Position numbers: made by a program
DNA from: Opitutia bacterium
GTDB taxonomy: Bacteria > Verrucomicrobiota > Verrucomicrobiia > Opitutales > Opitutaceae
Direction of reading: 5' to 3'
NCBI GenBank assembly: GCA_947478395.1
Contig: CANJVR010000001.1
Span: forward strand, 64,001 to 128,000
Length of the DNA stretch: 64,000 bases
Part shown: positions 41,401 to 47,400 of the stretch, piece by piece
How the letters are laid out: each line of letters opens with the position of its first letter
How positions within the stretch are numbered: position 1 is the first letter of the stretch

Positions 41401-44400
41401 TCTCGAGAAACGGGTAGAGCCGCAGACCCGCGAAGTAAGCGTCGCTGATCTTGCCGCAACCGATGATGCCGATGCCGAGCTTGGAAGACATGATTTTTAT
41501 CGCTGGAGCTGATTCCGCCGCGACGACAGGCGTCGACTCAAGGCTTCGGGGGGTTCGTCCCAAGCGATCCGTTCGTCGAACTATCGCGCGGATTTCTCAT
41601 TTGCTGGAAGGGCACGCTGTCGACGACAGCGATCACCAAGTTCGAGAATTTGTCGTCGGCCTGAACCCGTTGCACGATTTTATCGGCGGCGATCCGATCG
41701 CTGCCGTGATCTTCCACGCCGCGGCCAAGCGCATAGGTCAGGATTTTCTGGGCGAGATTCCGGTAATAGTCGCCCCGGTTGGTGGTCGAAAGAATTTGGA
41801 TCAGAGAGAGGGCGCCATCGAACGACTCGCCGGAGACGAGTTTACCGGTCGCGTCCACGGCCGCTGGTTTTCCGCCTTCGGTTTCATGGTCCCGCCACTG
41901 CCCGGCGGCGTCGAAGTTTTCGAAGGCCATGCCGATCGGATCCATCAAGGCGTGGCAGGAGGCGCAGCGGGGATCTTTCCGGTGTTGCTCGATGCGCTGG
42001 CGGATGGTCAGGCCCGCTTGCTCGGGGGCGTCGACATTGTTCACGACGCCCGCCGGTGGCGCGGGGACCGGCGTGCCGAGGATGTTATCGAGCACGAACC
42101 GCCCGCGCTTCACCGGCGACGTGCGGGTCGGATTGGAGGTCGACACCAACAGGCTGCCCTGGCCAAGCACCCCGCGGCGCGGCGTGGCGGCGAGCGAGAC
42201 GCGCTGGAAACCTTCGCCCGTCACCGGCGGCAAACCGTAGAACTGGGCGAGGCGTTCGTTCACAAACGTGTAGTCGGCCGTCAGCAGTTCCAGGAGTGAA
42301 CGGTTCTCGCGCATGATGTGCGCGACGAAGAGCGCCGTTTCCTGCTGCATGTCGGCGCGGATGGTGGTGCTGAAGCGCGGAAACAAAGTCTTGTCCGGCT
42401 CGATCGCCGACAGCGCGCGGAACTGCAGCCACTGGCCGGCGAAATTATCCACGAGCGCCGAGGCCTTGGGCGAGGCCAGCATGCGCGCGACTTGGGCATT
42501 GAGTTGCCGGCGCAATTGTTTTTTCGCCGCGAGATCGAGCAAGGTGTCGTCCGGCACGCTGCTCCACAGGAAATAGGAAAGCCGAGTGGCGAGCGAAAAC
42601 TCGTCGATGGGCACGCCGACTCGAGCCGGCGTCGCATTCGCGTCCGGCTTCGCCGCCGCGACGCGATCGGCCTGGGGAAATTCGGCGCGCAGGAGAAAGT
42701 GCGGTGAGACGAGCACCGCCATGAGCGGAAGTTTGAGGGCCGCCTCGAAGCTCTCCTCGTCTTTGTCCCCTTGCGCAAAAAGCTGCATCAACCGATCAAG
42801 TTCGGCCTTCTCCGGCGGACGGCGCCAGGCGCGGAGCGCGAACCGGCCGAGTTGTTCGCGCGCCACGGTCAGCTTGTTTTGCGGCGATACTTTTTTCGCA
42901 AAGTAGTCCCGCATCACCGAAGAGATCGGCGGCACCGGGGCGGTGCCATCGACCTCGACTACTTCGAGACTATGCACGGTGAGGGTGCGCGCGCGGAGGT
43001 TGGGATTCGGGTTCTCGGGATCCGCCTCATAGTTGGAAAAAACCGCGGCCAGCGTTTTCTCGCCCGGCGTCAGGTGGGTGCGGATTTCATACCGCTCCGG
43101 CACCGCCACCAAGTGATCCGCGGGCGCGGTCCACGGCCGGCTCGTTTTGGCATTTTTGAAGGGCTGGTACGCGGAAGGCGCCAGCACGGGCCTGGCCCCC
43201 AGGGATTTTCCGTCGACGCGCAGGTCCATCACCGCCGGGTCCTTTCCCGCCTGAGTTGCTTCCGCGTAGACGCGCACGAGATAGTCGCCCGCTTTCGCCA
43301 CTTTGAATTTCATCGCCAGCTCCCCGTTGCCGCGGAACACGCGTGCGCCGGTCGGCGTGAATTCCCCCGGCCCCGTGACGGCCAGCTGCGCAGCCGGCAC
43401 CCGCGTGACCGCGCCTTGGCCGGGCCCGTCCACCCGGATCCATTTCACCCAGCTGATGCCGTTGGACTGCGGACCGACATAACGGGCCATCGTGTCGACC
43501 ACCTGCTCATGCTCACCCCCGCGATGCCGGCGCATGACCACGCGGAGGCGTTGCCGCCCAGCGAGCAGGCTCACTTTGCCGGTATACGTGGCGGGCGCAC
43601 CCTCGACCGCCTCGATGACAAACGCCTGTTGCACGGTGTCGTTCACATACAGCGAGAGCACGGGTTTTTCCGGCGGGGAATTGGGGATGGGGCCGGACGC
43701 ACCATAAATATTGCCGTCACGATCCTGGCCAAACGCGTGGAAGCTCACGGCATATTCGCCGGTGACGGGCACATCCATGTCCACGTTGATATCGCCTTCG
43801 AACAGGCTGAGAATCTGGACCCAGCCATCGCCGCGGTCACCCAGATCGTTGAAGCCGACCAACGCCTGGTTGGCGGGAAAATGCCACGTGGCACTGGTGA
43901 TGCGCTCGGTGGGGACGGCTTGGTCGAGGGCCTGTTGCGCCGCCTTCACATATTTGCCGAGCAGCATCGGCGAGAGCGACAGCACGTCGCTGATGTTGTC
44001 GAAGCCGTAGCCCGAATCGTCGGCGGGAAAATCGTCCGCCGGATGGAAGTCCACCCCGAGCAGGTCGCGGATGCTGTTGTTGTATTCGGTCCGGTTGAGG
44101 CGGTGAATCACCACCCGACCCGGATCGGGATTTTGCGCATCGGCTGCGTACAACTGCCGATCGATCCAATCCGCGAGCAGATCGCGCTCGGCCTTGGTCG
44201 GCAACACCTCCGCATTCTCGGGCGGCATCTGGCGATTCCGCACGTGCTCCATCGCCAACGTCCAGAGCTTGCGGTCGCCCGGCAGGTCGCTGCCGCTTTT
44301 GAAATCGGTCAGATGAAAATCCCCCTGGTCCTCAGTGCCGCCGAGCCCGTGACACTCGTAGCAGTATTTTTTCAGGAGCGGTTGGACGTCCCGCTCGAAG

Positions 44401-47400
44401 GTCGCCGTTTCCGCTGACGCCGCCGTCCGGAGCGGCGCCGGCGAGTTCGCGGCCGACGCGACGCTCGCGCCCGCCGCCAGCCAGCTGAGAAACATAGCCG
44501 CCGCCAACCCGCGACGCGGTGAACACATCCGGATCATCGGTTTCAGGCGGAAAAAATCTGATCAAAGGCGCCCGTGCTGTCGCCGATTTTTTCCGTCGGC
44601 ACGCCGAGGTTGGCGAGGAGCGAGCGATGGAAATTATTCATCGGGATGCCCTGGCGTCCCTGGCCCGCGGAAATGTGCCGGCCCGTGAGGATGCCGCCGC
44701 CGCCTTTGCCCGCCACGAGCACGGGCAGGTCGAAGTGGTTGTGGGCGTTACCGTCCGCGATGCAGCCACCGTAAACGATCGACGAGTTATCAAGCACGGT
44801 CCCCTCGCCCTCCTTGATCGACTTGAGGCGCGTCAGGAATTTTCCGAAGTGCGCCATGTGGTATTGGTTCACCCGGGAAATCTTCGCGATGCGCTCAGGA
44901 TCGTTCTTGTGATGGGAAATGTCGTGATGGCCATCCCGCACGTCCACCTGAGGATAAGGGCGGTTGCTGCCCTCATGACCGATGACGAACGTGGCCACGC
45001 GGGTGGCGTCCGTCTGAAACGCGAGCGCCATCACCTCGTACATCAGCGCGATGTGCTGCTCGAATTCGTAGTCCAGCGGCGCGCGGAATTCGCGCTTGTC
45101 GGCGGGCAGCCGGCCGGCGACCTCCTCCGCGGAGGCGATCTGGCGCTCGAGGTCGCGCACGGCGGAAAAATATTCGTCGAGTTTCTGGTTATCCGCCGCG
45201 CCGAGTTTTTTCTGCAGGGCCTTGGCGTCGTCGCGCACGAAGTCGAGCACGCTCAGCTTTTGCCGCTCGCGGCGGGCGCGCATTTCCTTGCTCACTCTTG
45301 GATCGCCCGCGCCAAAGAGCCGCTCGAACGCCAGGCGCGGATCCACCTCCGGATTCATGGGCATCGTCTCGGACTTCCAGGAAATGTTGAACTGGTAGAT
45401 GCAACTGTAGCCGGTGTCACAGGTGCCCGTGCGCGCCCCGCGATCGCAGCTCAGCTCGAGCGAGGGCAAGCGTGTCTGGTGGCCGATTTTGTTCGCGGCG
45501 ATCTGGTCCACCGAAATACCCAGCCGCACGTCGGCGCCCTCGGTCTTGAAGGCCCGGCAACCGGTGAGATAACTCGCGGCGGCCCGCGCGTGGTCCGCGC
45601 CGCCATCCGCGTTAGGCTGCGCCTGCGCGTGCGCGAGGCCGCTGACGACAAGCAGGTCGTTCTTGTGCTCGCTCACCTTCTGCAGGATGGCGGGCATTTC
45701 GTAATCGGGGCCGAGCGTCTTCGGCGTCCAATCGACCATGTTCATGCCGTTCGGGACGTAGACGTAAGCCAGTCTTTTGGGAAAACCCTTGGCGCCGACC
45801 GCAACTCCGCCGGTTTCCTGCCCGAACAAGCGAGCCCCCGGAATCATGCACTCCAAAACCGGCAACGCCATGACCGTGCCGACCCCACGAAGAAAGGTCC
45901 GGCGGGAAAGTTCGTGTTTTTTCATAACGGCACGAGGGGAAAACGAGGGGGTTATCGGGGTAACAGCACGCTGGCGAACTCCCCACAAAGGGACGGCGAG
46001 TGGCAGCGTCAACCTGCGAAAAGTTATACTCCGATGTCGGGCATCGCACCATGGCGGACATCGTTGACCCTTTTAAAATCGCAAGCGCTCCGCTGCGGGC
46101 GCGATCCGCGAAAAAGGCTCCCTCGGAGTTGAGAATCGGACGGGGTTTGCCTCACGCCCCGCCGACGCCAAACTCCTCTTCGCCCCTCGATGAAATCCTC
46201 CATTCCCTCCATCACGGCGACCCTGGTCGCCCTCGCCTCCATGTCCGCCCCGCTCATTGCCGCCGAAACCACCGCCAAGCCCTCCCGCGAGTTCTTCGCC
46301 TATTTCGGCACTGGACGCGCCGGCGCGAACACCGGCTTCTCGATCGCGAACTTCAACTCCGACACCGGCGTGCTCACGGCGCCGACCGTCTCGCCCACCG
46401 TCGCGGCGCCGAGCATTTTCATTTTTTCGCCCGATGGCCGCCACCTCTACACCTGCTATCCCGGCCGCACGTTTCAGGGTCAGCCCGGCGGTGGCGTCGG
46501 CGCGTTTGCCGTGGATCCGGCTACGGGTGCCCTGACCGCGCTCAACACCGCGCTCTCCGGCGGCGCCGACCCTGGGTTTCTCAGCCTCGACCGCACGGGC
46601 CGCTTCCTCTTCGTCGCGAATTACAACGGCGGCAACGTTGCCGCGTTTGCCCTGCAGCCCGACGGCAGCCTCGGCAAGCGCACCTTCTTCGACCAGCACA
46701 CGGGCCAGAGCGTTCATCCCACCCGTCAGGGGCACGCCTACTGCGAGGTCATCTTCACCGACTCGACCAACCGCTACGTCGTCTCGACCGATCTCGGGCT
46801 CGACCAGATTTTCGTTTATCGCTTCGACGAAAAAACCGGCGCGCTCACGCCGGCCGAAACTCCCTTCGCCACCATCGCTCCTGGCTCGGGTCCACGCCAC
46901 GCAATCTTCGGTCGGGACGAAAAATTTCTCTACGTCGTCGGCGAGATGAGCAGCACCGTCACGACCTACGCTTGGGACGCCACAAAGGGGACATTAAAGG
47001 AAGGGCAGACGATCTCGACCCTGCCAGATGATTTCAAGGCCAACAACAATCCCGCCGAGCTCCTAGTCCACGCCAACGGCAAATTCCTCTACGCGTCCAA
47101 CCGCGGCCACGACAGCCTCGTGGTTTTCGCGATCGACGAAAAGACCGGCCGCCTGAGCCTCGTGCAGCATGTTTCCACCGGCGGCAAGACCCCGCGCTGT
47201 TTCTCCTTCGACCCGACCGGTCGCTGGATCGTCGTCTCCAACCAAGCCAGCGACAACGCCGTCGTCTTCCGCGTGGACGCGACCACCGGTAAGCTCACGC
47301 CGCAGGGCGACCCCGTCCCGATGCCGAATCCGCTGCAAGCGCAGTTCCTGGCCCGGCCCGCAAAATAGGGCGGACGAGGGAGGGAACAGCTCTCCGCGCC

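What a model noticed while it worked through the whole genome (the two positions that open the first line are those of the whole stretch)
41538..45925. 23 operon pairs: TAT-exported alkaline-phosphatase-fold DUF1552 enzyme with a two-haem, CBM-bearing PSCyt protein
The genome holds 23 same-strand pairs (about 3% of its DNA) of a ~450-aa DUF1552/'HXXSHH' protein and a 760-1150-aa 'planctomycete cytochrome' protein (PSCyt1-PSD3-...-PSD5-PSD4-PSCyt3-PSD2); example g00095+g00094. The DUF1552 partner has a twin-arginine signal and the fold of the alkaline-phosphatase superfamily with an invariant His/Asp cluster; the large partner has two invariant CxxCH haem sites separated by beta-sandwiches that resemble carbohydrate-binding modules. 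This suggests periplasmic, cytochrome-coupled enzymes acting on carbohydrate-derived substrates.
Evidence so far: 23 HXXSHH genes, each with a PSCyt3 gene on the same strand within two genes, 7 with 4-bp overlaps. Alignment of 20 paralogues: RRxFLRG signal, invariant H112 D140 Q141 D306 T308 R309 H338 H395, near-invariant H333 H334; large partner invariant C45 C48 H49 M90 and C844 C847 H848. AF2 model of g00095 pLDDT 79, pTM 0.83; VIA-align vs 48,161 chains: the 50 rows shown are all alkaline-phosphatase-superfamily members, best Z 17.2 (ENPP4 4lr2, 248 aligned, rmsd 3.5). Model of g00094 pLDDT 75; Foldseek matches (E 6e-5 to 1e-3) are BcsB, malectin-like, CBM51 and galactose-binding sandwiches. 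Complex test g00094(535-975)+g00095(45-460): ipSAE 0.49, best of 3 controls 0.00, verdict 'weak support' (a b [...]
(Added by a program. Inside this text positions count along the whole contig: contig position 64,001 is position 1 of the stretch shown here. "Call 12" and the like, gene names such as g00115 and contig names such as C1 are that model's own, and its searches are not shown. The text may have been shortened before it was handed on; [...] marks where a part breaks off. The agent that wrote the report below was given it as the finding of a first reader that could run no searches.)

Follow-up and report, generated by a model that had tools for sequence, protein, structure and literature searches.

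The report
Cytochrome plus phosphatase-fold enzyme gene pairs
This small freshwater-type Verrucomicrobium carries 23 old copies of a known but unexplained gene pair (an exported two-haem, sugar-binding protein and an exported enzyme-like protein with a sulfatase-type fold), and relatives of the pair include the Cellvibrio protein Cbp2D that is needed to grow on cellulose, which offers a way to test what the pair does.

Summary
Window 44543-45925(-) encodes a 460-aa DUF1552/HXXSHH protein with a twin-arginine signal. Window 41538-44537(-) encodes a 999-aa PSCyt1-PSD3-PSD5-PSD4-PSCyt3-PSD2 protein with two CxxCH sites. The genome holds 23 such same-strand pairs (2.9% of its DNA); 22 are directly adjacent.

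- **Fold:** DUF1552 models as an alkaline-phosphatase/sulfatase fold (Z 17.2). It lacks the sulfatase CxPxR signature and carries invariant His112, Asp140, His334, His338 and His395.
- **Already in print:** the pairing and the carbohydrate idea (He 2017; Kamneva 2012), and this scan has reported the pair and the fold on other DNA. It is a new member of a known, uncharacterised kind.
- **Added here:**
  - The haem-bearing C-terminal half has no solved structural relative.
  - The two partners co-diverge (r 0.93).
  - The flanks are enriched in esterase, lyase and lactonase genes.
  - 71 of 80 public loci from at least seven phyla keep the pair.
  - Gammaproteobacterial proteins with the published Cbp2D architecture carry the same C-terminal module, with a DUF1552 gene directly downstream in 9 of 9 loci examined.
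- **Best reading (0.4):** the haem protein binds glycan and feeds electrons to a metal site in DUF1552, which attacks the glycan oxidatively. No activity has been shown.

The complex test could not be repeated.

The parts
44543..45925 (-). DUF1552/HXXSHH gene, 460 aa, upstream gene of the pair
   Evidence: ORF and ATG. Pfam PF07586 at 344.7 bits, residues 51-360. AF2 model has an alkaline-phosphatase-superfamily fold.
45806..45925 (-). Twin-arginine-type signal region (residues 1-40, R8 R9 T F L R G); the cleavage site is not determined
   Evidence: Sequence. RR is invariant in 23 of 23 paralogues and present in 143 of 150 wider family members. Pfam TAT_signal gives weak hits in 16 of 23.
45590..45592 (-). 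His112, at or next to the position of the sulfatase nucleophile; followed by L120-T121-G122
   Evidence: Invariant in 23 of 23 and 149 of 150. A low-confidence hhalign against 9 sulfatases of this genome aligns the Cys of CxPxR with D111/H112.
45503..45508 (-). Asp140-Gln141
   Evidence: Invariant in 23 of 23. D in 149 of 150 and Q in 150 of 150.
44912..44926 (-). His334-x-x-Ser-His338 (the HXXSHH motif)
   Evidence: H338 in 23 of 23 and H334 in 22 of 23. Both in 150 of 150.
44741..44743 (-). His395
   Evidence: Invariant in 23 of 23 and 149 of 150.
41538..44537 (-). PSCyt3-type large partner, 999 aa, with a Sec-type signal (MIRMCSPRRGLAAAMFLSWLAAGASVASA)
   Evidence: ORF. Pfam domains.
44349..44363 (-). 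Haem site 1, C59-x-x-C62-H63; probable axial Met104-Pro105 at 44223-44228
   Evidence: Invariant in 23 of 23. A profile of this domain matches class I cytochrome c domains in the PDB; the best is CcoP at E 6.6e-5.
43914..44102 (-). PSD3 (DUF1587) domain, residues 146-208
   Evidence: Pfam 93.1 bits.
42864..43913 (-). Variable middle region, residues 209-558; CBM60-like beta-sandwich lead
   Evidence: No Pfam hit in this copy. CBM60 in the aligned region of paralogues L001 (29.1 bits), L005 (35.6 bits) and L003 (26.0 bits), cut-off 28.2. ESM Atlas lead. Length varies from 146 to 511 aa among the 23.
41607..42863 (-). PSD5-PSD4-PSCyt3-PSD2 body (residues 559-977), the module CAZy authors call X132
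   Evidence: Pfam. AF2 model of residues 545-999 has pLDDT 87.1. No solved structural relative found. Same domains at the C-terminus of Cbp2D-architecture proteins.
41952..41966 (-). Haem site 2, C858-x-x-C861-H862, with invariant H852, D866, E873 and R882 nearby
   Evidence: Invariant in 23 of 23.
40388..41491 (-). Downstream same-strand Gfo/Idh/MocA oxidoreductase, 367 aa from MSSKLG, no signal peptide
   Evidence: Pfam. Translation and start.
38752..39693 (-). Downstream same-strand exported alpha/beta-hydrolase esterase (Abhydrolase_3/BD-FAE), 313 aa from MNSFRAF
   Evidence: Pfam. Translation and start.
46190..47368 (+). Divergent exported 7-bladed-propeller lactonase
   Evidence: Pfam PF10282, E 1.6e-104. 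Signal-like N-terminus. One of only 4 such genes in the genome, 2 of which touch a pair.

Best explanation
Each pair encodes a two-protein periplasmic redox enzyme that works on plant-cell-wall glycans.

The large Sec-exported protein is both scaffold and electron wire. It has an N-terminal class-I-type haem c domain (His/Met), PSD3, a variable beta-sandwich that binds the glycan (CBM60-like in some copies), and a conserved helical body (PSD5-PSD4-PSCyt3-PSD2, which is CAZy's 'X132') that carries the second haem.

The Tat-exported DUF1552 protein is the catalytic end. It has a sulfatase/alkaline-phosphatase fold in which the nucleophile and the usual metal ligands are gone. In their place stands an invariant set of four His with Asp and Gln. 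This set most likely holds a redox-active metal that is loaded in the cytoplasm before export.

Electrons most likely flow from a donor through haem 1 and haem 2 into DUF1552. The donor here would be the periplasmic cytochrome pool. In gammaproteobacterial relatives it would be a fused PQQ sugar dehydrogenase or a quinone-binding YceI module. DUF1552 then uses the electrons, with O2 or H2O2, to oxidise or cleave the bound glycan, on the same logic as cellobiose dehydrogenase feeding an LPMO. The 23 anciently diverged pairs would serve different glycans.

Shown: signals, folds, motifs, adjacency, co-divergence, genomic context and conservation across phyla. Inferred: complex formation, metal binding, haem attachment, direction of electron flow, substrate and chemistry.
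For: Working together:
- 22 of 23 pairs are directly adjacent, and 9 have overlapping stop and start.
- Distance matrices of the 23 DUF1552 proteins and the 23 partner C-halves correlate at r 0.93. None of 10,000 permutations reached that value; the highest was 0.42.
- The most similar paralogue pair is 73% identical, so the copies are old.
- Gene order has flipped in 3 pairs without loss of adjacency.
- In 80 public loci from at least 7 phyla, fetched with the partner C-half, 71 hold a same-strand DUF1552 gene within 3 kb. Five do not, and 4 have flanks that are too short.

Catalytic metal site:
- Alkaline-phosphatase-superfamily fold, Z 17.2.
- H112, D140, Q141, H334, H338 and H395 are kept in at least 149 of 150 family members.
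- The family has 29,520 cluster representatives at E<=1e-3.
- The Tat motif is near-universal.

Glycan link:
- CBM60 in 2-3 of 23 paralogues and an Atlas lead for the window's own copy.
- 9 of the genome's 23 PF00756 esterase genes lie within 5 kb of a pair, in 6.2% of the genome (binomial p 5e-6; the genes are clustered, so this overstates).
- Neighbours include GH43, GH39, GH106, GH29 and GH62 genes, PL22, Pec_lyase (pectic acid lyase) and PcRGLX-type lyases, BD-FAE, GDSL, SASA and AXE1 esterases, and TonB-dependent receptors.
- A BD-FAE esterase directly upstream, with pectin lyases nearby, recurs in other genomes at L024 and L025, as in own L001.

Direction of electron flow:
- I examined 9 gammaproteobacterial loci, picked for long frames out of 50 listed matches. 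All 9 large proteins carry PSD3, PSD5, PSD4 and PSCyt3, and all 9 have a Pfam HXXSHH gene directly downstream.
- Their N-terminal additions are glycan binders (CBM_2 in 4 of 9, ricin-type lectin in 2 of 9) and electron sources (PQQ glucose/sorbosone dehydrogenase in 2 of 9, YceI in 2 of 9).
- The CBM2-YceI-cytochrome-DUF1587-X132 architecture is that published for Cbp2D.
- Cbp2D's X183 cytochrome domain (+193 mV) reduces LPMOs in vitro (passages).
- Loss of Cbp2D harms growth on insoluble cellulose more than loss of the LPMO does, and its authors propose a novel cleavage mechanism (passages).
- This genome has no LPMO_10 gene at 98.8% completeness, so an LPMO of that family cannot be the acceptor here.
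- Lactonase genes (2 of 4 PF10282, 1 of 4 SGL) lie beside pairs, which fits lactone products.
Against: - No activity, metal, haem attachment or complex has been shown for any family member.
- I had no model coordinates, so the spatial clustering of the His/Asp set is untested here.
- No redox enzyme is known in the alkaline-phosphatase superfamily (my recall).
- The lactonase and Gfo/Idh/MocA neighbours, and the His/Met haem 1 typical of donors to terminal oxidases, fit the opposite direction equally well. The genome has 3 haem-copper oxidase genes.
- The DUF1552 partners of the Cbp2D-type proteins keep the His residues in only 7-8 of 9 and Gln141 in 1 of 9.
- 10 of 14 close DUF1552 homologues in Verrucomicrobiales have no PSCyt3 neighbour, so DUF1552 can exist without the cytochrome in cis.
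- Many pairs sit next to unrelated housekeeping genes.
- Sequence-profile links to sulfatases (hhalign probability 25%) and to DUF1501 (36%, signal and first strand only) are weak.
- The apparent fusions of the two genes look like read-through gene calls.
Confidence: 0.4

Rival explanations
1. Substrate dehydrogenase feeding respiration. DUF1552 (or the haem-2 body) oxidises a sugar or oligosaccharide, for example at C1 to a lactone. Electrons then leave through haem 2 and haem 1 to the cytochrome c pool and a terminal oxidase, as in quinohaemoprotein or flavocytochrome sugar dehydrogenases.
For: - Haem 1 has the CxxCH...MP pattern, and its profile matches CcoP and class I cytochromes.
- The genome has 3 haem-copper oxidase subunit I genes.
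- Lactonases lie beside pairs: 2 of 4 PF10282 and 1 of 4 SGL.
- Gfo/Idh/MocA and aldo/keto reductase genes are neighbours.
- He 2017 report that PSCyt genes are denser in oxic-layer genomes (passage).
Against: - In relatives a PQQ sugar dehydrogenase or a quinone-binding module is fused upstream of the cytochrome. That would put two electron sources and no sink in one protein, and Cbp2D is secreted.
- Lactones are also the products of C1-oxidising LPMO-type chemistry (figure legend).
- No dehydrogenase cofactor site is evident in DUF1552: Pfam shows only HXXSHH.
Confidence: 0.22
2. Non-redox hydrolase or transferase. DUF1552 is an alkaline-phosphatase-superfamily esterase (sulfate, phosphate or another ester on a glycan) that uses His112 or a metal-bound water. 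The haem protein only positions the substrate or regulates the enzyme.
For: - Every solved relative by fold is a hydrolase or transferase: all 50 rows shown.
- The flanks are rich in other esterases.
- A six-gene sulfatase cluster lies 6-23 kb from the pair in L019.
Against: - The canonical nucleophile and the first-strand Asp ligands are missing.
- Two invariant haem sites across phyla, and obligatory pairing (71 of 76 assessable loci), are hard to explain for a plain hydrolase.
- The modules fused in relatives are redox modules.
Confidence: 0.13
3. Non-catalytic module. The pair binds, senses or chaperones an envelope component or glycan. DUF1552 would be a dead alkaline-phosphatase fold, like YejM/PbgA, and the haems would act as redox sensors.
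For: - YejM/PbgA chains are among the fold matches, at Z 14.6-14.8.
- Third partners made of repeats (ankyrin in 2 loci, WD40 in 2 loci, and a DUF1552-HEAT fusion, P0163) suggest protein-protein scaffolds.
- A sigma-54 response regulator and histidine kinases lie nearby.
Against: - A near-universal set of four His plus Asp across 150 diverse members points to a metal or active site.
- 23 diverged copies next to degradative enzymes look like catalytic diversification.
Confidence: 0.08
4. Not about glycans. The pairs handle metal, haem or iron, and the carbohydrate context is coincidental in a genome full of glycan genes.
For: - PF00756 also covers siderophore esterases (my recall).
- TonB-dependent receptors, and a PepSY_TM/ApbE/DUF2271 set, lie near some pairs.
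Against: - CBM60, CBM2, ricin-type lectin and chitinase-N modules are built into family members.
- The conserved neighbours in other genomes are pectin lyases, GH3 and BD-FAE esterases.
- Cbp2D has a cellulose phenotype.
Confidence: 0.05

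Closest known systems
PSCyt3/PSD ('Group III planctomycete-specific cytochrome') + DUF1552 gene pairs of Planctomycetota and Verrucomicrobiota. Domains defined by Studholme et al. 2004 (known to me only as cited in He 2017). Pairing described by He et al. 2017, mSphere, PMC5615132; I read main-text passages and Text S1.
   Same: Same Pfam families, same adjacency, same suggestion of a carbohydrate role through CBMs. This locus is a member.
   Different: Nothing in kind. Additional here: the scale (23 pairs in 3.3 Mb; first-look candidates 26 against at most 12 in 300 other genomes of the phylum), the fold assignment, the conserved residue set, co-divergence and context statistics.
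Cbp2D of Cellvibrio japonicus and TERTU_2913/TERTU_3803 of Teredinibacter turnerae. CAZy-style modules [CBM2][X158][FN3][X183][DUF1587][X132]. Sources: Branch 2021 PMC8981238 (passages, section 5, supplement S1); Rajagopal 2024 PMC10916295 (passages); Kakacek 2025 PMC12542752 (passages).
   Same: - Cytochrome c domain, then DUF1587/PSD3, then a C-terminal CxxCH module.
- In 9 of 9 gammaproteobacterial loci examined, that C-terminal module is PSD5-PSD4-PSCyt3 by Pfam.
- Two of the proteins (1,063 and 1,123 aa) have the CBM_2-YceI-cytochrome-PSD3 order published for Cbp2D (1,122 aa).
- All nine have a DUF1552 gene directly downstream.
   Different: - Cbp2D-type proteins are secreted and carry CBM2, YceI or PQQ-dehydrogenase modules that the window's protein lacks.
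- Their cytochrome domain (X183, solved) was not among the 48 PDB rows matched by the profile of my N-terminal domain.
- I could not name the genomes, so identity with Cbp2D itself is not shown.
- The papers do not mention a DUF1552 or Tat-exported neighbour: 0 occurrences of twin-arginine, operon, gene cluster or neighbouring in the three texts. Gardner et al. 2014 was not seen.
PSCyt2-PSD1 (DUF1549/DUF1553) + DUF1501 pairs, and DUF1800 + DUF1501 pairs (Kamneva et al. 2012, PMC3542564, passages).
   Same: A large exported partner next to a Tat-exported protein of about 450 aa. Both kinds occur in this genome: 2 PSCyt2 and 3 DUF1800 genes next to DUF1501 genes.
   Different: Different Pfam families. 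hhalign finds only the signal and first strand shared between DUF1552 and DUF1501 (probability 36%) and nothing between the C-half and DUF1800 (0.3%). DUF1800 proteins have no CxxCH.
Type I sulfatases and ENPP phosphodiesterases (alkaline-phosphatase superfamily).
   Same: Core fold: Z 17.2 (7stt sulfatase), Z 17.1 (4lr2 ENPP4), 69 chains at Z>=8. Foldseek's best 7 rows (E<=1e-3) are all sulfatases. An L-T-G follows His112 at the spacing at which it follows the Cys in the sulfatase signature (the signature itself is recalled).
   Different: No C/S-x-P-x-R in 0 of 23. The first-strand Asp-Asp aligns to Pro58-Asn59, and the Asp-Asn/His after the late strand is not kept (low-confidence alignment). 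There is no sequence-level match to any PDB chain or to any alkaline-phosphatase-clan Pfam family at E<=10.
Cellobiose dehydrogenase or AA12 PQQ dehydrogenase (with cytochrome and CBM) feeding an LPMO. This is what the pair may work like, not a family it belongs to.
   Same: A glycan-binding module, a cytochrome wire, an electron source (fused in some relatives) and a separate histidine-rich metal enzyme as acceptor.
   Different: No homology. c-type rather than b-type haem. The acceptor has an alkaline-phosphatase fold rather than the LPMO fold. No LPMO_10 gene in this genome. No activity shown.

Membership tests
Pfam HXXSHH / DUF1552 (PF07586) | Match to the family model above the gathering score | tested here: met
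   344.7 bits against a cut-off of 30, residues 51-360. 23 of 23 paralogues match.
Pfam HXXSHH / DUF1552 (PF07586) | The H-x-x-S-H-H motif | tested here: met
   H334-D-I-S337-H338-H339 in the window protein. H338 in 23 of 23, H334 in 22 of 23, S/T337 in 23 of 23, H339 in 18 of 23.
PSCyt3/PSD 'Group III' planctomycete-type cytochrome | PSCyt3 together with PSD4, usually with PSD2, PSD3 and PSD5 (definition as given by He 2017) | tested here: met
   All five domains above cut-off in the window protein and in 23 of 23 paralogues.
PSCyt3/PSD + DUF1552 gene pair | Adjacent genes on the same strand | tested here: met
   5-bp gap in the window. 22 of 23 pairs directly adjacent. 71 of 80 public loci keep the pair.
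c-type cytochrome (class I) for the N-terminal domain | CxxCH with a distal Met, and a match to cytochrome c models | tested here: inconclusive
   C59-x-x-C62-H63 and M104 are invariant. Pfam Cytochrome_CBB3 gives 20.7 bits and PSCyt1 20.9 bits, both under their cut-offs, for the window copy. The domain profile matches CcoP at E 6.6e-5. Covalent haem binding cannot be tested here.
Tat substrate | Twin-arginine consensus (S/T-R-R-x-F-L-K) before a hydrophobic stretch | tested here: met
   S7-R8-R9-T-F-L-R, then GVGTVMALPVL. Present in 23 of 23. Export itself was not tested.
Alkaline-phosphatase superfamily | Core alpha/beta fold | tested here: met
   All 50 top VIA-align rows are superfamily members, Z 13.5-17.2. 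This rests on a predicted model with pLDDT 78.1.
Alkaline-phosphatase superfamily | Ser/Thr/formylglycine nucleophile at the start of the helix after the second core strand, and an Asp metal ligand after the first strand | tested here: inconclusive
   A low-confidence hhalign (probability 25%) puts D111/H112 at the Cys position and P58-N59 at the Asp-Asp position. N59 is present in only 15 of 23. No structural superposition at residue level was available.
Type I sulfatase (Pfam Sulfatase, S1) | C/S-x-P-x-R signature and a match to PF00884 | tested here: not met
   0 of 23 contain the motif. No PF00884 hit at E<=10 in any of the 23. The same genome's 9 true sulfatases all have CxPxR.
CBM60 | Match to PF16841 above 28.2 bits | tested here: not met
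   The window's middle region has no hit at E<=0.1. Paralogues L001 (29.1 bits) and L005 (35.6 bits) meet the cut-off; L003 (26.0 bits) does not. The ESM Atlas gives a lead only.
Cbp2D-type proteins (X183-DUF1587-X132) | Cytochrome c domain, DUF1587, and a C-terminal CxxCH module (X132) | tested here: inconclusive
   The window protein has the same order of parts. X132 equals PSD5-PSD4-PSCyt3 in 9 of 9 proteins of Cbp2D-like build. I could not compare with the named Cbp2D sequence, and X183 was not matched by my domain profile.
DUF1501 / DUF1800 systems | Match to PF07394 or PF08811 | tested here: not met
   No such Pfam hits for either window protein. hhalign probability 36% over the signal and first strand only, and 0.3%.

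The most novel reading that the evidence does not exclude
DUF1552 is the first redox-active branch of the alkaline-phosphatase superfamily. In this reading it is a Tat-exported, histidine-ligated metal enzyme that receives electrons from its dedicated two-haem partner (CAZy 'X132' proteins, Cbp2D included). It oxidatively cleaves or modifies polysaccharides, which would make it an LPMO-like activity on an unrelated fold and the missing catalytic partner behind the 'novel cellulose-cleaving mechanism' proposed for Cbp2D. The 23 pairs here would then be a periplasmic oxidative counterpart of a glycoside-hydrolase repertoire.
Probability: 0.25. Interest if true: 0.85.

Novelty: new member of a known kind. 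Interest (0 to 1): 0.58.

Why it matters
The DUF1552 family is very large: 29,520 cluster representatives at 50% identity. With its haem partner it is among the most expanded gene sets of Planctomycetota, Verrucomicrobiota, Acidobacteriota and others, and nothing is known of its function (He 2017; no functional study found in five further literature searches).

Two things here make the question more tractable.
- This 3.3-Mb genome offers 23 old, co-diverged pairs, each in its own glycan-degrading neighbourhood. That gives a natural table of candidate substrates such as xylan, pectin and rhamnogalacturonan.
- The same two-gene unit includes proteins built like Cbp2D, which has a growth phenotype on cellulose in the genetically tractable Cellvibrio japonicus. 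In the three Cbp2D/TERTU papers I read, the downstream DUF1552 gene is not mentioned.

If DUF1552 is the catalytic acceptor, it would define a new class of carbohydrate-active redox enzymes. It would also explain why these bacteria invest about 3% of a genome in the pair.

Tried and rejected
- **Complex prediction.** Complex prediction on the C-half plus mature DUF1552, both as alignments, was not available.
- **Fusions as evidence of binding.** 9 of the 10 longer proteins found carry HXXSHH together with PSD domains. Most keep an internal Met and RRxFL Tat motif, all have a truncated end of the PSCyt part, and all are singletons. I read them as read-through gene calls, not true fusions.
- **Sequence searches of the PDB.** The DUF1552 profile (best E 0.33), the C-half profile (best E 1.3) and the single N-terminal domain (nothing) found no relative.
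- **Fold search of the C-half** (model pLDDT 87.1). No chain reached Z>=8. The best was Z 6.9 over 60 residues of the PSD5 helices. Foldseek's best E was 2.1. The ESM Atlas gave no named cluster outside the family. This shows no solved relative was found, not that the fold is new.
- **Profile comparisons on shallow alignments from this genome.**
  - DUF1552 against DUF1501: probability 36%, signal and first strand only.
  - C-half against DUF1800: 0.3%.
  - DUF1552 against sulfatases: 25%.
- **Pfam at E<=10** on all 23 DUF1552 proteins: no alkaline-phosphatase-clan family.
- **NCBIfam:** nothing for either protein.
- **Promoter and terminator scan** of 38000-47500: no more sites than in shuffles.
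- **Expression.** One freshwater metatranscriptome run holds a 249-base contig identical to 44896-45144, inside the DUF1552 gene. The other five pieces are 33-36-base conserved stretches of other organisms. This does not show transcription of this operon.
- **X183.** The solved CjX183 cytochrome was not among the 48 PDB rows matched by the N-terminal domain profile.
- **Pfam/InterPro clan tables** were not on hand, so I could not see whether DUF1552 is already filed in the alkaline-phosphatase clan.

Full report
**What is there.** Two ORFs fill the stated span on the minus strand.
- The upstream one, 44543-45925, starts at the ATG at 45925. It encodes 460 aa beginning MKKHELSRRTFLRGVGTVMALPVL.
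- Five bases after its stop, the second ORF (41538-44537) encodes 999 aa with a Sec-type signal.

Pfam calls the first HXXSHH/DUF1552 at 344.7 bits. The second is PSD3, PSD5, PSD4, PSCyt3 and PSD2, all above their cut-offs, with weak PSCyt1 and Cytochrome_CBB3 matches over the first CxxCH. NCBIfam has nothing for either.

**The genome-wide claim.** The window is C1:64001-128000 of a 3.31-Mb assembly in 9 contigs, 98.8% complete. It holds 23 HXXSHH matches, 23 PSCyt3 matches, and PSD4 in the same 23 frames. With starts that I chose:
- All 23 pairs are on the same strand.
- 22 are directly adjacent. One (L005) has a 672-aa ORF without a Pfam match in between.
- 8 have a 4-bp overlap and 1 a 14-bp overlap.
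- 20 run PSCyt then DUF1552. Three, the window's among them, run the other way.
- Together they take 96,420 bp, or 2.9% of the genome.

The same genome has only 2 PSCyt2 genes and 5-6 DUF1501 genes, plus 3 DUF1800 genes next to DUF1501 genes.

The nearest public DUF1552 homologue (78% identity, same gene order) is in a MAG labelled Opitutae. Others are Verrucomicrobiota and one is Planctomycetaceae. In a sample of 300 other genomes of the phylum, 18 have the family. The first-look candidate count is 26 here against at most 12 elsewhere.

**Conserved residues.** R8, R9, H112, D140, Q141, D306, T308, R309, H338 and H395 are invariant, and H333 and H334 nearly so. The family is very large: 29,520 cluster representatives at E<=1e-3 and 7,157 at E<=1e-30. 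I aligned the window protein with 149 of the best representatives, all of 400 aa or more. H112, D140, S155, D228, E260 and H395 are kept in 149 of 150. Q141, D245, H334 and H338 are kept in 150 of 150. RR is kept in 143 of 150. All 23 large partners have exactly two CxxCH, with C59, C62, H63, M104, P105, H852, C858, C861 and H862 invariant.

**Fold of DUF1552.** My AF2 model, built from the 23-sequence alignment, has pLDDT 78.1 and pTM 0.81. VIA-align against 48,161 chains finds 69 chains at Z>=8. All 50 rows shown are sulfatases, ENPPs, PafA-type phosphatases, LtaS/EptA/MCR-1, YejM/PbgA, phosphopentomutase or alkaline phosphatase. The best are 7stt (Z 17.2, rmsd 3.7, 266 aligned) and 4lr2 (Z 17.1). 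Foldseek's seven rows at E<=1e-3 are all sulfatases.

At sequence level the link is weak:
- No PDB chain matches the family profile.
- No alkaline-phosphatase-clan Pfam family appears at E<=10.
- hhalign against nine sulfatases of the same genome gives probability 25% over 318 columns.

That alignment, and the ungapped spacing to the following L-T-G, put His112 at or next to the formylglycine Cys position and Pro58-Asn59 at the Asp-Asp metal ligands. None of the 23 has C/S-x-P-x-R. So the scaffold is sulfatase-like but the catalytic apparatus is replaced.

**The large partner.**
- The N-terminal domain profile matches class I cytochrome c domains. The best is CcoP at E 6.6e-5.
- The region between PSD3 and PSD5 varies from 146 to 511 aa among the paralogues.
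- Pfam finds CBM60 in that region in L001 (29.1 bits) and L005 (35.6 bits), with a cut-off of 28.2, and just under the cut-off in L003 (26.0). It finds nothing in the window's own copy.
- For the window's own copy the ESM Atlas puts CBM60 clusters on top (0.93, 0.92), with one structural row that meets its naming bar.
- The C-terminal 455 residues model confidently (pLDDT 87.1) as a mostly helical body. Neither VIA-align (0 chains at Z>=8), nor Foldseek (best E 2.1), nor the PDB profile search finds a solved relative.

The indirect evidence is as follows:
- The pairwise distances of the 23 DUF1552 proteins and of the 23 partner C-halves correlate at r 0.93. None of 10,000 permutations reached it; the highest was 0.42. 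Nearest neighbours agree in 15 of 23, and the most similar pair is 73% identical. The pairs are therefore old and have duplicated as units. This shows co-inheritance, not binding.
- In 80 public loci fetched with the C-half, a same-strand DUF1552 gene lies within 3 kb in 71 (69 downstream, 2 upstream). Five lack one despite adequate flanks, and 4 are too short to tell. The loci come from Verrucomicrobiota, Planctomycetota, Acidobacteriota, Armatimonadota, Myxococcota, Gemmatimonadota and Gammaproteobacteria.
- Against obligatory pairing: 10 of 14 loci fetched with the window's DUF1552 protein, all Verrucomicrobiales at 45-49% identity and probably one orthologous group, have no PSCyt3 gene in the available flanks.
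- The apparent fusions look like read-through gene calls.

**Context.** In the window the pair is followed on the same strand by a cytoplasmic Gfo/Idh/MocA oxidoreductase and an exported BD-FAE/Abhydrolase_3 esterase. It faces an exported lactonase. GDSL and AXE1 esterases, a TonB-dependent receptor and an MFS transporter lie within 10 kb.

Around the other 22 pairs I scanned 152 flanking ORFs.
- Recurrent neighbours are PF00756 esterases, BD-FAE, GDSL and SASA esterases, GH43, GH39, GH106, GH29 and GH62 genes, oligogalacturonate, pectate and rhamnogalacturonan lyases, TonB plugs, lactonases and an aldo/keto reductase.
- Many neighbours are unrelated housekeeping genes.

Counts against the whole genome:
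- 9 of the genome's 23 PF00756 genes lie within 5 kb of a pair, in 6.2% of the genome. The binomial p is 5e-6, which is overstated because the genes cluster.
- 2 of 4 PF10282 lactonases and 1 of 4 SGL genes do so as well.

Three loci from other genomes show the same theme:
- L023 has the pair followed by a GH3 gene.
- L024 has a PL4 lyase and a BD-FAE esterase, then the pair.
- L025 has a BD-FAE esterase, the pair, and two PL22 lyases, much like own L001.

**What is already known.**
- He et al. [quoted passage not shown] They also state that some PSCyt proteins carry CBMs, that a carbohydrate role is plausible, and that nothing is known of function (main-text passages and Text S1).
- Kamneva et al. 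2012 described the DUF1501 sister system with Tat signals and proposed electron transfer to sugars or proteins (passages).
- Full-text searches for DUF1552, HXXSHH, PSCyt3, DUF1592/1588/1587/1585/1595, PF07586, DUF1501/1549/1553/1800 and 'planctomycete cytochrome' found no functional or structural study of the pair.
- This scan has reported the same pair, its alkaline-phosphatase-type fold, and an ankyrin third partner on other DNA. Here an ankyrin gene follows DUF1552 in 2 of 23 pairs (L002, L016), and WD40 genes touch 2 more (L003, L022).

**The Cbp2D link.** One hit of the DUF1587 search was Branch et al. 2021. In that paper Cbp2D of Cellvibrio japonicus is annotated [CBM2][X158][FN3][X183][DUF1587][X132]. 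The supplement lists the same X183-X132 build in many Planctomycetes. The papers report:
- X183 is a c-type cytochrome (+193 mV) that reduces LPMOs in vitro.
- The cbp2D deletion grows worse on insoluble cellulose than the lpmo10B deletion, and the authors propose a novel cleavage mechanism (Kakacek 2025).

To test the link I searched 301 genomes of the order of a gammaproteobacterial locus with the C-half model. 31 genomes had a match. From the 50 listed matches I took the nine with open frames of 1,044-1,324 aa. I left out the shorter frames and the three frames of 1,904, 2,165 and 2,278 aa.

All nine proteins have PSD3, PSD5, PSD4 and PSCyt3 by Pfam. Their N-terminal parts are:
- CBM_2 in 4 of 9.
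- YceI in 2 of 9. These two (1,063 and 1,123 aa) have the full CBM2-YceI-cytochrome-PSD3 order published for Cbp2D, which is 1,122 aa.
- PQQ glucose/sorbosone dehydrogenase in 2 of 9.
- Ricin-type lectin in 2 of 9.
- A Cip1-like domain in 1 of 9.
- ChitinaseA_N in 1 of 9.

All nine have a Pfam HXXSHH gene (107-242 bits) directly downstream with an RR motif. H112, D140, H338 and H395 are kept in 8 of 9, H334 in 7 of 9, and Q141 in 1 of 9. So X132 is the PSD5-PSD4-PSCyt3(-PSD2) body, and Cbp2D-type proteins belong to the same two-gene unit. The three Cbp2D/TERTU papers do not mention a neighbour, operon or Tat protein. Gardner et al. 2014 was not available to me.

**How it most likely works.** In these relatives the modules added in front of the cytochrome are glycan binders and electron sources (a PQQ sugar dehydrogenase, a quinone-binding YceI). 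The constant end, haem 2 plus DUF1552, is therefore best read as the electron-consuming, catalytic end. This genome has no LPMO_10 gene, so here the co-encoded DUF1552 is the obvious acceptor.

I therefore favour, at 0.4, a glycan-tethered haem wire feeding a histidine-ligated redox metal in DUF1552, which oxidises or cleaves the glycan. Tat export would secure cytoplasmic metal loading; the precedent, the Mn cupin MncA, is recalled. Lactone products would explain the lactonases.

The opposite direction, a sugar dehydrogenase feeding the three terminal oxidases, stands at 0.22. The lactonase, Gfo/Idh/MocA and His/Met haem evidence does not tell the two apart. The lesser rivals are a plain hydrolase (0.13), a non-catalytic module (0.08) and a role outside glycans (0.05).

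**Verdict.** The pair is a new member of a known, uncharacterised kind. Its interest lies in the size of the unknown family, in the 23-fold natural experiment in one small genome, and in the route to a genetic test through Cbp2D.

Noticed in passing
L005:8114-10129 (+) = G000 C1:599298-601313: In the one pair that is not directly adjacent, a 672-aa ORF with no Pfam match lies between the PSCyt3 and DUF1552 genes. It may be a third component of that unit. The related locus L025 also has about 1.5 kb between the two genes.
   Followed up: no
L002:8983-10560 (+), L016:3523-5004 (-), L003:2433-4988 (-), L022:9303-10799 (-): Ankyrin-repeat genes lie directly downstream of DUF1552 in two sister pairs. 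WD40-repeat genes lie directly beside two others. A DUF1552-HEAT-repeat fusion (P0163, 1,167 aa) exists in public data. Repeat proteins recur as third partners, as earlier notes of this scan reported for Acidobacteria.
   Followed up: partly
L026-L035 (public Verrucomicrobiales loci): A group of DUF1552 homologues (45-49% identical to the window's) has no PSCyt3 neighbour. They lie instead next to a DUF900 hydrolase, a sulfatase, or FtsZ, MurJ and O-antigen-ligase genes. DUF1552 therefore also exists as an orphan.
   Followed up: partly
G302 (genome of L097, a gammaproteobacterial MAG of about 2.7 Mb): This genome has 17 matches to the PSCyt3 C-half model. It is a second small genome, in another phylum, with a large expansion of the family.
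   Followed up: no
L146:3857-7759 (-), L147:3808-7725 (-): Single proteins of about 1,300 aa join two CBM2 modules, a PQQ glucose/sorbosone dehydrogenase, a cytochrome c and the PSD3-PSD5-PSD4-PSCyt3 body, with a DUF1552 gene downstream. This would be a complete source-wire-sink chain in two genes.
   Followed up: partly
G000 C4:259292-276531: Six of the genome's sulfatase genes cluster within 17 kb, starting about 6 kb beyond the DUF1552/PSCyt3 pair of L019 (C4:249354-253292).
   Followed up: no
window 57900-61283 (-): A 1,127-aa ORF joins an SBP_bac_5 solute-binding domain to an ABC permease domain (BPD_transp_1) in one frame. This is an unusual fusion, or a missed stop.
   Followed up: no
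G000 C2:108728-111362, C4:54978-57911, C7:2248-5208: There are three DUF1800 + DUF1501 gene pairs. Two of the DUF1800 proteins are about 1,100 aa with long N-terminal extensions and no CxxCH. They are haem-free cousins of the same two-gene logic.
   Followed up: partly
L011 and L013 (G000 C2:391294-395432 and C2:787500-791691): These two pairs are each other's nearest relatives (65% and 61% identity) yet have opposite gene order. The order has flipped while adjacency was kept.
   Followed up: partly
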